This document shows positions 36,601 to 39,600 of a DNA stretch of 64,000 nucleotides, in pieces; positions within the stretch are counted from its first letter, which is position 1; each line of letters begins with the position of its first letter. The stretch spans positions 1 through 64,000 of the forward strand of contig JAAILG010001367.1 of the NCBI GenBank assembly GCA_012026655.1, in the 5' to 3' direction. This stretch comes from Hydrolagus affinis. Lineage: Eukaryota. Made by a program: the position numbers.

Positions 36601-39600
36601 CAACCCCCCCCCCCCACCACCGCTTCTGGATTTACAAACGGTACAAAACAAGCTTCTTGTGTAATATCTGTGTCAAGTTATAGGACTTTAAAAACAACAC
36701 ACGTACACCAGAAAACAATACCAACTCTCTTGCAAAGTTTTTGACACTCCATCATCTGAAGATAAAAGAAAACAAGAGCTGACTTGAATGAACGGAAAGG
36801 GAAGTAATTAATGCTCCGGGCTTTTCAACGGTTACTACAAAGACACGTTTGGAAGGAAACTTAATTCACCCACAGCGTCCCAAACACTGAAGGTCAGAAT
36901 GAAGTGAAGTAAATATAAAAACAGCTCCACCTGATAGCTGCTGACATAACAAGACAGCTCAGGACCAGGGCAAGCACAAAGCGGGGCTGCAATCCCCGCC
37001 AATCTTATCCGCGCGCGTGTAAATGTATAACTGCCAGCGGTTGTTCTCGTTCAAAGAGTACATCACACGCGGGGGAATTGCTTTGGGATTTTTTTTTTAC
37101 CAATCGCTGAACTTTATGAGAACTAAAGTGCTCGGGGTATCGCGGCCCGCGGTGAGGGGTAAACTCTGCAGCCCGATGACCACCACCGCCGCGGACACCA
37201 CTGTCGGCCCCTCCTCCGCCGCCGCCATTTTCTTTTCCAGTGATTTTTGCAGCTCGCTTCTCAGCAAACGTTTGAGCTCCGCGCGCCGGCGCCTCTGATT
37301 GGTCAAGGTTCAGCCTCAGCGGAGCCGTCGTACCCCTCACGCACGCACGCACGCGCATGATCGTTACACCAGAGGGAAGGCTCACAGTGGAAATCCTTAC
37401 ATCCATATATGGTCAGGGTCTGAGAGTAGCCACCCCCCCCACACAAACACAACATGGTCAGGGTCTGAGAGTAGCCCTCCGCCCCCCCTCCCTCACACAC
37501 ACACATATACATGGTCAGGGTCTGAGAGCAGCCCTCCCCCACACACACCACGCACACACGGAGCCCTCTGTAACACGACTACATCACCCTCGCCAGTCTC
37601 CACTGGCTCCCCGTCACCCAGAGGATCAAATTCAAGATCCTTCTTCTCACTTTCAAGGCCATTCACAGGCTTGCCCCCGCCCATCTCTCTGACCTACTGT
37701 CTCCCTATCAGCCTGCCCGCACCCTCCGTTCAGCAGACTCAGGCCTACTCCGCGTCCACCGCCCAACCATCGGTGGCCGGGCTTTCAGCCTCTGCTCCCA
37801 CACTGTGGAACTCCATCCCGCAGCCCCTCCTCCCTTTCCTCCTTCAAGGCCGTCTCAAAACCTTCCTCTTCGACTGCACCTTTGGCTCCCCCACTAACTC
37901 TTCCCCCCCCACCCCCCGCTTGGGTCCCAACCTGACTGTTCAACACTTTAGGAGGTCCTCCCGATGTGAAAGGCGCTATATAAGTGCAATTTTGTTATGT
38001 TGTTTAGCATCCTTATGTAAGGATTATTAGTGTAAAGTAGTAAAGCAGGTAAGCATTCTCCCAAGTTTACAGTTAATACTGATATTTACACTAATGTATA
38101 CTTACAATCATTGGGGGAAAGAAAGTCTGCATTTTAATTGTTTATTCTTTGGCCTCATCAGCCCATTTCACAACCTTTAAAAACAAATGGCAATAACTAA
38201 CACATTTGTTTACACTAGCATTACGAAAAGTTGCCAGTTGAAAACAATCCTTGGTAACATTTAAAAAAAAAATCCAGAGGTATCAGTGTGATCATTAAGG
38301 TACAGTACTGCTGACATCAAGAGGCAATACTCTGTTCACCCTGTGAATTCAGTACACTTTTTAAAAAAATCTGAAAACATCTACTGGCTCTACAGACAAT
38401 ATAAAAATTTACACAACTTCATTTTGGTACAGAAAGACCTACAGATCAATTAGTCTCTGCAGTCATGTTAGGTACACAGTTGTAAGTAGCACCAAAATGC
38501 TGAGATCAAGCCTGAGTGAGTCACTGTAAAATACATGTATTGCAAATGGTTCCTGAAAACTTGTAAGATTATGGCTAATTAGTTTTACACTCAAAATTAC
38601 CCACTCCCAGGGTTTAATGTTCAGTTGCATAGGGATAAAGTTTACTAGAAACACATAAGCAAAGAAATACAATAAGTAAACTTTACAGTTCATCTGAAAA
38701 TTAGTCTTAAAAGATTCAAGAGTTCACAATATAAACTAAGCTTCTAAGAGAAACTGGAACATTACTAGGAATCAGGATGCAGTGATTCCTTCCCATTCCA
38801 CAAGGTACTGCACTTTGCCATCCAGGGTCACTCGACGTGCTAAGATTCGATATTTTTCACCACAGGCAAGTCTTCCCGCAGCACCAAAATAGTTGGTTAT
38901 TGAAGATTTCAAATGATTTAGGTGCATGTCCTGATCATTGATATCTATGATTTCTGGGTCTAGTCCTTCACACTGACAATCATCCTTTTCTTCATTATCA
39001 TTTCCACTTTCTGAGGTCTGGGGCTGAAATGTTCTCGTCGAAGTGCGGCCTCGTCTCTTTTTTAAACGCTGCAGTGTTAATGGCCAAGATCTACCAGTGC
39101 GAGTTCTCCGTCTTGAACCAGAAAGTCTAAATTAAAATGAAGATTCACATTTCAACAATTTAAAAGCAATTAGACCAATGTAACATTCTAAAAAATATAG
39201 ACACAAGCAATGAAAGAATTTGATATAGGAAGACTGGAAAAGAAAACGCCACTTTATAGACTTCACAAGAAAATGAACCATCAACAAAATAGGACCAGGT
39301 GAATTGAGCAAGAAATACTTTCAGAAACGTGAAGTAAAAGTGATTATTCCTAGCTGTACTGAATACAATAAAACAAACAACCGCAGACCAACCTTTAATG
39401 CGGGTTGACAAATAAGCTATGGTAAGGATGTCAATGAACAATGATTTTGTTTCTTGTCCAAATTTTGACTTTAAAAAAAGCATTTTACTTTCAGTTTTGG
39501 ATTCAACCAAATTACGACTCCTTTTGTAATAAATGTTGTTCTTCCCCCCAAACACTGCAAAAAGAGCAAACTTCATTTTTGTTACTATTAATATTTATAC

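What the first reader, a model, noticed from the sequence alone, without database searches (positions are those of the whole stretch)
37300..38130. TMED5 is missing between CCDC18 and MTF2
In human, as I recall, the order is DIPK1A-MTF2-TMED5-CCDC18, with TMED5 head-to-head to CCDC18 on a shared promoter. Here only ~0.8 kb with no N gap separates the CCDC18 CpG island from the MTF2 polyA signal. That interval holds a minisatellite and an L2 fragment and has no GOLD/p24-like exons. Either this lineage lost or relocated TMED5, or TMED5 entered this locus later in bony vertebrates.
Basis: partly seen in the sequence, partly recalled or inferred. Interest (0 to 1): 0.65.

Follow-up and report, generated by a model that had tools for sequence, protein, structure and literature searches.

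The report
No TMED5 between MTF2 and CCDC18
The short stretch between the end of the MTF2 gene and the start of the neighbouring coiled-coil gene is ordinary, gap-free spacer DNA with no trace of TMED5, which is most likely a difference in gene order between animal lineages and not a gene loss.

Summary
Window 37300-38130 has no N. It contains the right flank of a CpG island (36951-37480), a 3-copy minisatellite (37409-37559), one interspersed repeat (37585-37996) and 134 bp of AT-rich spacer, ending at two minus-strand polyA signals (38133-38146) downstream of the last MTF2 exon. Pfam scans of 790 stop-free ORFs covering the whole 64 kb listed EMP24_GP24L/GOLD in none. The same scans found single exons of the neighbours: Mtf2_C 8.4e-28, Tudor_2 1.3e-8, PHD 2.2e-5 and PIP49_N 9.6e-18. 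The order DIPK1A-like(+), MTF2(-), long coiled-coil gene(-) matches human apart from TMED5. The name CCDC18 could not be tested and rests on position and recall. Two papers place teleost Tmed5 with Pigc, Suco and Mysm1. The human order is therefore not general among bony vertebrates, which favours an empty site that was never occupied in this lineage. This is ordinary synteny variation of low interest. The decisive test is to look for TMED5 in this species' PIGC-SUCO interval.

The parts
2..33834 (-). Coding part of a long coiled-coil gene (CCDC18 candidate) that runs off the left end of the window. Likely first coding exon in ORF 33619-33834. Further exon-bearing ORFs include 33118-33360, 31972-32241, 29441-29725, 27180-27434, 22945-23244, 21678-21965, 16670-17008, 15568-15906 and 14619-15305.
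   Evidence: Of 569 ORFs of 45 aa or more, 9 pass a coiled-coil composition filter, and all 9 lie on the minus strand between 16047 and 27434. Pfam gives only weak coiled-coil family hits. The name CCDC18 comes from no tool: two Atlas calls (30, 59) and a PDB search were uninformative.
36951..37480 (.). CpG island, inferred promoter and non-coding or short-ORF first exon of the coiled-coil gene.
   Evidence: GC 0.566, 40 CpG, observed/expected 0.95. That it is the promoter of the minus-strand gene is inferred from position.
37100..37104 (+). CCAAT box on the plus strand at the left side of the CpG core.
   Evidence: Motif scan. Function is inferred.
37298..37302 (-). CCAAT box on the minus strand (ATTGG on plus), upstream of the inferred minus-strand start.
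   Evidence: Motif scan and sequence read. Function is inferred.
37409..37559 (.). Minisatellite of about 3 copies around a 23-base core.
   Evidence: TRF: period 57, 2.1 copies, score 159. The core occurs at 37409, 37454 and 37511 and nowhere else in the window. Self-BLAST.
37585..37996 (+). Interspersed repeat (retroposon 3' part or SINE-like), family not determined.
   Evidence: Body matches at 50922-51192 (67% over 298), 60365-60480 (70% over 120) and 22369-22404. The tail 37903-37996 matches 9 other places, the best being 36122-36215 at 86% over 94.
37997..38130 (.). Unique AT-rich spacer just beyond the MTF2 polyA site.
   Evidence: GC 0.328, 0 CpG. No other copy in the window.
38133..38146 (-). 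Two minus-strand polyA signals (ATTAAA at 38133-38138, AATAAA at 38141-38146), inferred distal 3' end of MTF2.
   Evidence: Hexamer scan. No plus-strand AATAAA or ATTAAA anywhere in 37000-38200. Usage is not shown, as there are no RNA data.
38147..38771 (-). MTF2 3' UTR (inferred).
   Evidence: Lies between the stop codon at 38772-38774 and the polyA signals. Unique in the window. GC 0.332 over 38131-38771.
38772..39131 (-). Last coding exon of MTF2 with its stop codon. ORF bounds are given. The acceptor site near 39122 is read from the sequence.
   Evidence: Pfam Mtf2_C 8.4e-28, 96.8 bits against a cutoff of 27.
42568..48625 (-). Upstream MTF2 coding exons, inside ORFs 48380-48625 (start codon near 48592, Tudor), 47361-47474 (Tudor), 46228-46368 and 45159-45287 (PHD1), 44750-44899 and 43538-43666 (PHD2), and 42568-42813 (extended-homology domain).
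   Evidence: Pfam Tudor_2 1.3e-8 and PHD 3.6e-4, 2.2e-5 and 4.1e-5. PDB best hit is human MTF2 in 3 of 3 exons searched, ahead of PHF1 and PHF19.
57137..57236 (.). The only assembly gap in the window (100 N), outside the finding. Left untouched.
63095..63259 (+). N-terminal coding exon of a FAM69/DIPK1-type gene (DIPK1A by position), divergent from MTF2.
   Evidence: Pfam PIP49_N 9.6e-18, 64.8 bits against a cutoff of 21. The paralogue was not determined.

Best explanation
Window 37300-38130 is a real, contiguous intergenic spacer of about 0.85 kb. MTF2 transcripts (minus strand) end at the polyA signals at 38133-38146. A CCAAT-box CpG-island promoter at about 36950-37480 then starts the next minus-strand gene, a long coiled-coil gene taken to be CCDC18. 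Between them lie only a small minisatellite and one retroposon-type repeat. Without that repeat the spacer would be about 0.4 kb. TMED5 is not here because in this lineage it most likely sits elsewhere, predicted next to PIGC and SUCO as in teleosts. On that reading the window shows the unoccupied state of a site that holds TMED5 in human. Shown: the anatomy, the absence of GOLD-type coding sequence, the identity of MTF2 and the FAM69-type neighbour. Inferred: the polyA and start-site usage, the CCDC18 name, and the whole evolutionary reading.
For: (1) The interval has no N. (2) EMP24_GP24L is listed for 0 of 790 ORFs. These are 92 ORFs of 20 aa or more across 36300-39200 at E up to 1, and 698 ORFs of 40 aa or more in the rest of the window at E up to 0.1. 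The three long plus-strand ORFs of the interval gave nothing at E up to 10 and no PDB hit. (3) Internal positive controls show exon-sized pieces of the neighbours' domains were found by the same scans: 45 aa of PIP49_N at 9.6e-18, 22 aa of Tudor_2 at 1.3e-8, and 19-27 aa pieces of PHD at 2.2e-5 to 3.6e-4. (4) MTF2 is best in 3 of 3 exons against PDB: 8e-15 versus PHF1 4.7e-8, 1.2e-26 versus 1e-17, and 4.6e-21 versus 1.5e-9. Identity to human MTF2 is 28/36, 42/50 and 39/43. (5) Order and strands match human apart from TMED5 (for the human order). (6) Teleost Tmed5 lies with Pigc, Suco, Mysm1 and Oma1 (PMC4177693 section 14; PMC7059289 passages). The block that the same paper calls conserved between human, frog and fishes (Mettl13, Vamp4, Myoc, Prrc2c, Pigc, Suco, Prdx6) leaves Tmed5 out (passage of section 16). 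(7) No plus-strand polyA signal exists in 37000-38200, and the first plus-strand ATG-led ORF after the island has no hydrophobic stretch.
Against: No genome of this species and no vertebrate collection could be searched, so where TMED5 lies, or whether it exists, is unknown. The taxon of the window is not established, and calling it a cartilaginous fish rests on my recall of its repeat motifs. Whether MTF2 and CCDC18 are adjacent in teleosts, gar or coelacanth was not seen. Figure 1E of PMC4177693 is not held and supplements are closed. The teleost gene is called Tmed5 by automatic annotation, and its orthology was not checked. print only 25 of 38 and 25 of 37 families, so a hit with E above 0.041 or 0.057 could be hidden there, though it would not be significant. 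ORFs under 40 aa outside 36300-39200, and 6 ORFs touching the N run, were not scanned. No TMED sequence was available as a positive control for sensitivity. The CCDC18 name is untested.
Confidence: 0.55

Rival explanations
1. The ancestral order was human-like (MTF2-TMED5-CCDC18), and this lineage removed TMED5 from the locus, either by relocation or by outright loss, leaving a clean junction.
For: The flanking genes keep the human order and orientation exactly. From recall, not from a call: TMED1 and TMED5, like PHF1, PHF19 and MTF2, lie on human chromosomes 19, 1, 6 and 9, which form one set of paralogous regions, so old linkage of TMED5 to this chromosome region is plausible.
Against: There is no relic: no GOLD-like ORF, no signal-peptide-like first exon on the plus strand, and no plus-strand polyA signal. 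Teleosts also lack the human placement of Tmed5. This rival therefore needs at least two independent departures if the window's lineage is not a teleost.
Confidence: 0.25
2. Assembly artefact: sequence holding TMED5 was dropped by a collapse or misjoin at the minisatellite, the homopolymer runs or the repeat.
For: The interval contains a minisatellite, C-rich runs and an interspersed repeat, which are places where assemblers err. Read support could not be checked.
Against: The interval has no N. A collapse removes repeated sequence, not a unique multi-exon gene. Both flanks are the expected neighbours in the expected orientation, so a misjoin would have had to excise exactly one gene. The MTF2 3' UTR and the 134-bp spacer are unique in the window.
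Confidence: 0.05
3. The left-hand gene is not CCDC18 but another long coiled-coil gene, so the locus is rearranged more widely and 'TMED5 missing between CCDC18 and MTF2' is the wrong description.
For: No tool named the gene. Atlas best scores were 0.81 and 0.96, both to generic coiled-coil clusters with low recognition values. PDB had nothing below E 0.3, and Pfam gave only weak coiled-coil families.
Against: Position, strand and a CpG-island start next to the MTF2 3' end fit CCDC18. The gene is long and coiled-coil throughout. From recall only, the N-terminal exons resemble human CCDC18.
Confidence: 0.07
4. TMED5 is present in the window but escaped detection because its exons are short or diverged.
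For: ORFs under 40 aa were scanned only in 36300-39200. No TMED positive control could be run.
Against: The interval leaves only about 0.4 kb of non-repeat DNA. 0 of 790 ORFs hit EMP24_GP24L, while 19-45 aa pieces of the neighbours' domains were detected.
Confidence: 0.03

Closest known systems
Human 1p22.1 block FAM69A(DIPK1A)-MTF2-TMED5-CCDC18
   Same: A FAM69-type gene lies divergent from MTF2. The MTF2 3' end faces the 5' CpG island of the next gene on the same strand. MTF2 exons are 78-91% identical to the human protein (28/36, 42/50 and 39/43). The human order comes from a PMC4143550 passage.
   Different: No TMED5. In human about 41 kb separates the MTF2 end from the CCDC18 start (hg19 coordinates), and here the distance is about 0.85 kb. 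MTF2 coding exons span about 10 kb here, against about 60 kb for the human gene.
Teleost arrangement Dnm3/miR-214 - Pigc - Tmed5 - Suco - Mysm1 - Oma1
   Same: It shows a vertebrate state in which Tmed5 is not at the MTF2-CCDC18 junction (PMC4177693 section 14; PMC7059289 passages). The window is compatible with this state.
   Different: None of those genes is in the window, so membership of this arrangement is a prediction and not an observation.
Bidirectional CpG-island promoters (the human TMED5/CCDC18 pair as recalled)
   Same: A CpG island with CCAAT boxes in both orientations flanking its core.
   Different: No plus-strand gene, ORF with a family hit, or polyA signal follows the island. 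Divergent transcription was not tested.

Membership tests
Tetrapod-type DIPK1A-MTF2-TMED5-CCDC18 synteny block | MTF2 orthologue present (Tudor, two PHD fingers, extended-homology domain, Mtf2_C), closer to MTF2 than to PHF1 or PHF19 | tested here: met
   Pfam hits. In PDB, MTF2 is best in 3 of 3 exons. Searched exon by exon, with no joined model.
Tetrapod-type DIPK1A-MTF2-TMED5-CCDC18 synteny block | FAM69/DIPK1 gene upstream of MTF2 on the opposite strand | tested here: met
   PIP49_N 9.6e-18 at 63095-63259 (+). The paralogue (A, B or C) was not determined.
Tetrapod-type DIPK1A-MTF2-TMED5-CCDC18 synteny block | CCDC18 downstream of MTF2 on the same strand | tested here: inconclusive
   A long minus-strand coiled-coil gene is there, but no tool names it.
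Tetrapod-type DIPK1A-MTF2-TMED5-CCDC18 synteny block | TMED5 (EMP24_GP24L/GOLD exons) between MTF2 and CCDC18 on the opposite strand | tested here: not met
   0 of 92 ORFs in 36300-39200. 0 of 3 long plus-strand ORFs at E up to 10. 0 PDB hits.
p24/TMED gene anywhere in the window | An ORF matching Pfam EMP24_GP24L | tested here: not met
   Listed for 0 of 790 ORFs. Searches show 25 of 38 and 25 of 37 families. 6 ORFs with X and ORFs under 40 aa outside 36300-39200 were not scanned.
p24/TMED gene anywhere in the window | Signal peptide, transmembrane helix and short cytosolic tail motif | not tested
   No dedicated search was made. By eye only, the first plus-strand ATG-led ORF after the CpG island lacks a hydrophobic stretch.
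Assembly gap or collapse | N run or scaffold join inside the interval | tested here: not met
   The only N run is 57137-57236.
Assembly gap or collapse | Reads or maps showing missing sequence | not testable with these tools
   No reads or second assembly were available.
   No repeat library was available. The element is interspersed (3 body and 9 tail matches), but no ORF in the window hits a reverse-transcriptase family in the lists shown.
CpG-island promoter | At least 200 bp with GC of 0.5 or more and CpG observed/expected of 0.6 or more | tested here: met
   36951-37480: 530 bp, GC 0.566, observed/expected 0.95. Promoter activity was not tested.

The most novel reading that the evidence does not exclude
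The window preserves the empty pre-insertion site of a single-gene move. On this reading TMED5 originally lay between PIGC and SUCO, as it still does in teleosts. On the branch leading to tetrapods it was transposed into the sub-kilobase MTF2-CCDC18 spacer, where it took over the already CCAAT-symmetric CCDC18 CpG island as a shared bidirectional promoter.
Probability: 0.4. Interest if true: 0.35.

Novelty: new member of a known kind. Interest (0 to 1): 0.2.

Why it matters
If the reading is right, this is a clean, datable example of one gene moving within an old linkage group and acquiring a neighbour's CpG island as a shared promoter. That is useful for teaching and for synteny-based orthology calls in the p24-gamma subfamily, but it changes no general view. 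If TMED5 were truly absent from the whole genome, it would say something about redundancy between TMED1 and TMED5 in cargo export. Nothing here supports that yet.

Tried and rejected
- **Six-frame Pfam scan:** I switched to stop-free ORFs, bundled as alignments A1-A6 only so that hmmscan could take up to 140 ORFs per call.
- **Naming the coiled-coil gene:** two Atlas calls returned only generic coiled-coil clusters with low recognition values. The 229-aa ORF gave a top score of 0.81 and the 90-aa ORF gave 0.96. A PDB search found nothing below E 0.3.
- **DIPK1-type exon against PDB:** only a designed repeat protein at E 0.0059, so nothing useful.
- **Rfam and ARAGORN:** Rfam at gathering thresholds gave 3 tRNA-type hits and ARAGORN gave 2 tRNA calls (one shared with Rfam), none in the interval.
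- **Literature (ten full-text searches):** no paper describes the MTF2-CCDC18 junction in any fish, or TMED5 in cartilaginous fishes. 'ccdc18 + mtf2 + synteny' gave 0 papers. 'tmed5 + shark' gave 3 papers: one matched 'Sharkey' in a reference list, one (PMC3984803) was not opened, and the third was PMC4177693, the miRNA paper read. [quoted passage not shown]
- **Rejected idea:** that the 243-aa plus-strand ORF 37299-38027 is a gene. It runs through the minisatellite and the repeat and has no Pfam or PDB match.
- **Not used:** the genome-contig collection (bacteria and archaea only) and the phage, plasmid and E. coli collections cannot bear on a vertebrate locus.
- The search for homologous proteins, the search of protein representatives, metagenome contigs and viral contigs. 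No broad homology search was therefore made for any exon.
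Full report
**Scope and limits**

I do not take this window for human. Its MTF2 exons are 78-91% identical to the human protein, and the gene is several times more compact. Nothing was therefore treated as a human contig. Gene models were searched exon by exon. I made and searched no joined (spliced) protein, so all family assignments below are per exon. Whole-assembly and cross-species synteny tests could therefore not be run. Supplementary files and figures of papers were not visible.

**The interval**

The window has one N run, 57137-57236, far from the finding. Read from the left, the anatomy is:

| Coordinates | Feature | Evidence |
|---|---|---|
| 36951-37480 | CpG island, 530 bp, GC 0.566, 40 CpG, observed/expected 0.95 | |
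| 37100 (+) and 37298-37302 (-) | CCAAT boxes in opposite orientations | |
| 37409-37559 | Minisatellite; TRF period 57, 2.1 copies, score 159 | |
| 37585-37996 | Interspersed repeat | |
| 37997-38130 | Unique AT-rich DNA, 134 bp, GC 0.328, no CpG | |
| 38133-38138 and 38141-38146 (-) | ATTAAA and AATAAA polyA signals | |

- The minisatellite's 23-base core is present three times and nowhere else in the window.
- The repeat's body matches 50922-51192, 60365-60480 and 22369-22404. Its 3' tail matches nine other places.
- The only other minus-strand polyA hexamer between 37900 and 38800 is at 38613.
- There is no plus-strand polyA hexamer anywhere in 37000-38200.

The label 'L2' could not be tested, because no repeat library was available and no ORF in the window hits a reverse-transcriptase family.

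**The neighbours: MTF2**

To the right, the minus-strand ORF 38775-39131 hits Pfam Mtf2_C at 8.4e-28 and ends in a stop at 38772-38774. This leaves a unique 3' UTR of about 0.65 kb down to the polyA signals. Further upstream on the same strand, single exons hit Tudor_2 (1.3e-8) and PHD (3.6e-4, 2.2e-5, 4.1e-5).

Three exons were searched against PDB chains. Human MTF2 was the best match in all three:

| Exon (minus strand) | Best MTF2 E-value | Best PHF1 E-value | Identity to human MTF2 |
|---|---|---|---|
| 48380-48625 | 8e-15 | 4.7e-8 (PHF19 3e-5) | 28/36 |
| 44750-44899 | 1.2e-26 | 1e-17 | 42/50 |
| 42568-42813 | 4.6e-21 | 1.5e-9 | 39/43 |

This is MTF2 and not a paralogue.

**The neighbours: DIPK1-type gene and the coiled-coil gene**

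At 63095-63259 on the plus strand an exon hits PIP49_N (FAM69) at 9.6e-18. This is the DIPK1A position, divergent from MTF2.

To the left, a long coiled-coil gene runs on the minus strand. Of 569 ORFs of 45 aa or more, nine pass a composition filter for coiled coils, and all nine are minus-strand ORFs between 16.0 and 27.4 kb. Further exon-like ORFs reach up to 33834. I could not name this gene with any tool. Two Atlas calls gave only generic coiled-coil clusters. PDB gave nothing, and Pfam gave only weak coiled-coil families. 'CCDC18' therefore rests on position, orientation and my recollection of the human protein. I put it at about 0.85 to 0.9.

**Is TMED5 anywhere in the window?**

I cut all six frames into stop-free ORFs and scanned two sets against Pfam:

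- 92 ORFs of 20 aa or more overlapping 36300-39200, at E up to 1.
- 698 ORFs of 40 aa or more in the rest of the window, at E up to 0.1. Six ORFs containing X from the N run were left out.

EMP24_GP24L is listed for 0 of these 790. Two of the lists are truncated (25 of 38 and 25 of 37 families shown). Anything hidden there has E above 0.041 or 0.057 and would not be significant.

The three long plus-strand ORFs of the interval gave nothing at E up to 10 except a chance CBM26 match at 0.69. The 243-aa ORF has no PDB match at E up to 10. PDB does hold GOLD-domain structures of TMED1, 2, 5 and 10 (passages of bioRxiv 10.1101/2021.02.13.431076).

I had no TMED sequence from a tool to use as a positive control. 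The same scans did pick up 19-45 aa pieces of the neighbours' domains, so exon-sized fragments are within reach. After the repeat and minisatellite are set aside, the interval has only about 0.4 kb left. That cannot hold a four-exon gene.

**What the literature adds**

- A passage of PMC4143550 gives the human hg19 order: FAM69A, MTF2 (ends 93,604,638), TMED5 (93,615,299-93,646,246), CCDC18 (starts 93,646,281). Strands are not given there.
- PMC4177693 (section 14 read in full) lists the fish neighbours of miR-214/Dnm3 as Pigc, Tmed5, Suco, Mysm1 and Oma1.
- Its section 16 (passage) names a block conserved between human, frog and fishes that contains Pigc and Suco but not Tmed5.
- Passages of PMC7059289 put PIGC, SUCO, TMED5 and MYSM1 together on rainbow trout chromosome 4.

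In teleosts, then, the gene annotated Tmed5 is not at the MTF2-CCDC18 junction. That paper also analysed elephant shark, gar and coelacanth, but the relevant figure is not held and supplements are closed. I do not know what it shows for them. None of the ten searches found a paper on this junction in a fish or on TMED5 in cartilaginous fishes.

**Interpretation**

The interval works as an ordinary tandem-gene spacer. MTF2 transcripts are cleaved just left of 38133. About 0.85 kb further on, a TATA-less, CCAAT-box CpG island starts the next gene on the same strand. Both steps are inferred from motifs and are not shown.

For the absence of TMED5, the most economical reading is that this site was never occupied in this lineage, and that the human placement arose on the branch towards tetrapods. 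This needs one move if the window's lineage branches outside or low among bony vertebrates. A human-like ancestor needs at least two departures, one in teleosts and one here. I give this reading 0.55.

It depends on three untested points. First, the taxon: the repeat motifs remind me of cartilaginous-fish SINEs, from recall only. Second, the orthology of teleost 'Tmed5'. Third, the adjacency of MTF2 and CCDC18 in other fishes.

The rivals and my weights are:

- Removal from a human-like ancestor (relocation or loss): 0.25.
- A wider rearrangement with a misnamed left gene: 0.07.
- Assembly error: 0.05.
- A missed gene: 0.03.

**Verdict**

This is a gene-order difference of a familiar kind with a plain mechanism. 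It can be checked in minutes by anyone with the assembly. Interest is low.

Noticed in passing
window 53418-53489 (-): A tRNA-Ala(TGC)-like sequence scoring 51.1 bits in Rfam, also called by ARAGORN. It lies between the MTF2 promoter region and the DIPK1-type gene and could be a real tRNA gene or the head of a SINE. Two weaker tRNA-type Rfam hits are at 5262-5334 (+) and 1283-1352 (-).
   Followed up: no
window 37100-37309 (-): Inside the CpG island, a minus-strand ATG near 37229 in a good start context opens a 43-codon ORF. The ORF stops just after a GT that could serve as a splice donor near 37101. It could be a short coding first exon or an upstream ORF of the coiled-coil gene. It has no Pfam hit.
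   Followed up: partly
window 37100-37104 (+) and 37298-37302 (-): Two CCAAT boxes in opposite orientation flank the roughly 200-bp CpG core. This layout is typical of bidirectional promoters, although no plus-strand gene follows.
   Followed up: partly
window 57137-57236: The only assembly gap (100 N). It sits in GC-rich, low-complexity DNA between the MTF2 5' region and the DIPK1-type exon, so the DIPK1-type gene's own promoter may be incomplete in this assembly. It was left untouched.
   Followed up: no
window 36122-36215 and 36386-36436, with copies at 2119, 6871, 20559, 22187, 28932, 41721 and 62659: A tail module of about 60-95 bases, shared with the 3' end of the repeat at 37903-37996, recurs nine times in 64 kb on both strands. 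Two copies sit just left of the CpG island. This points to a very abundant retroposon family in this genome.
   Followed up: partly
window 38133-50250: MTF2 is very compact here. The coding exons span about 10 kb (38772-48625), and CpG-rich windows at 49501-50250 probably mark its promoter. The human gene is about 60 kb.
   Followed up: no
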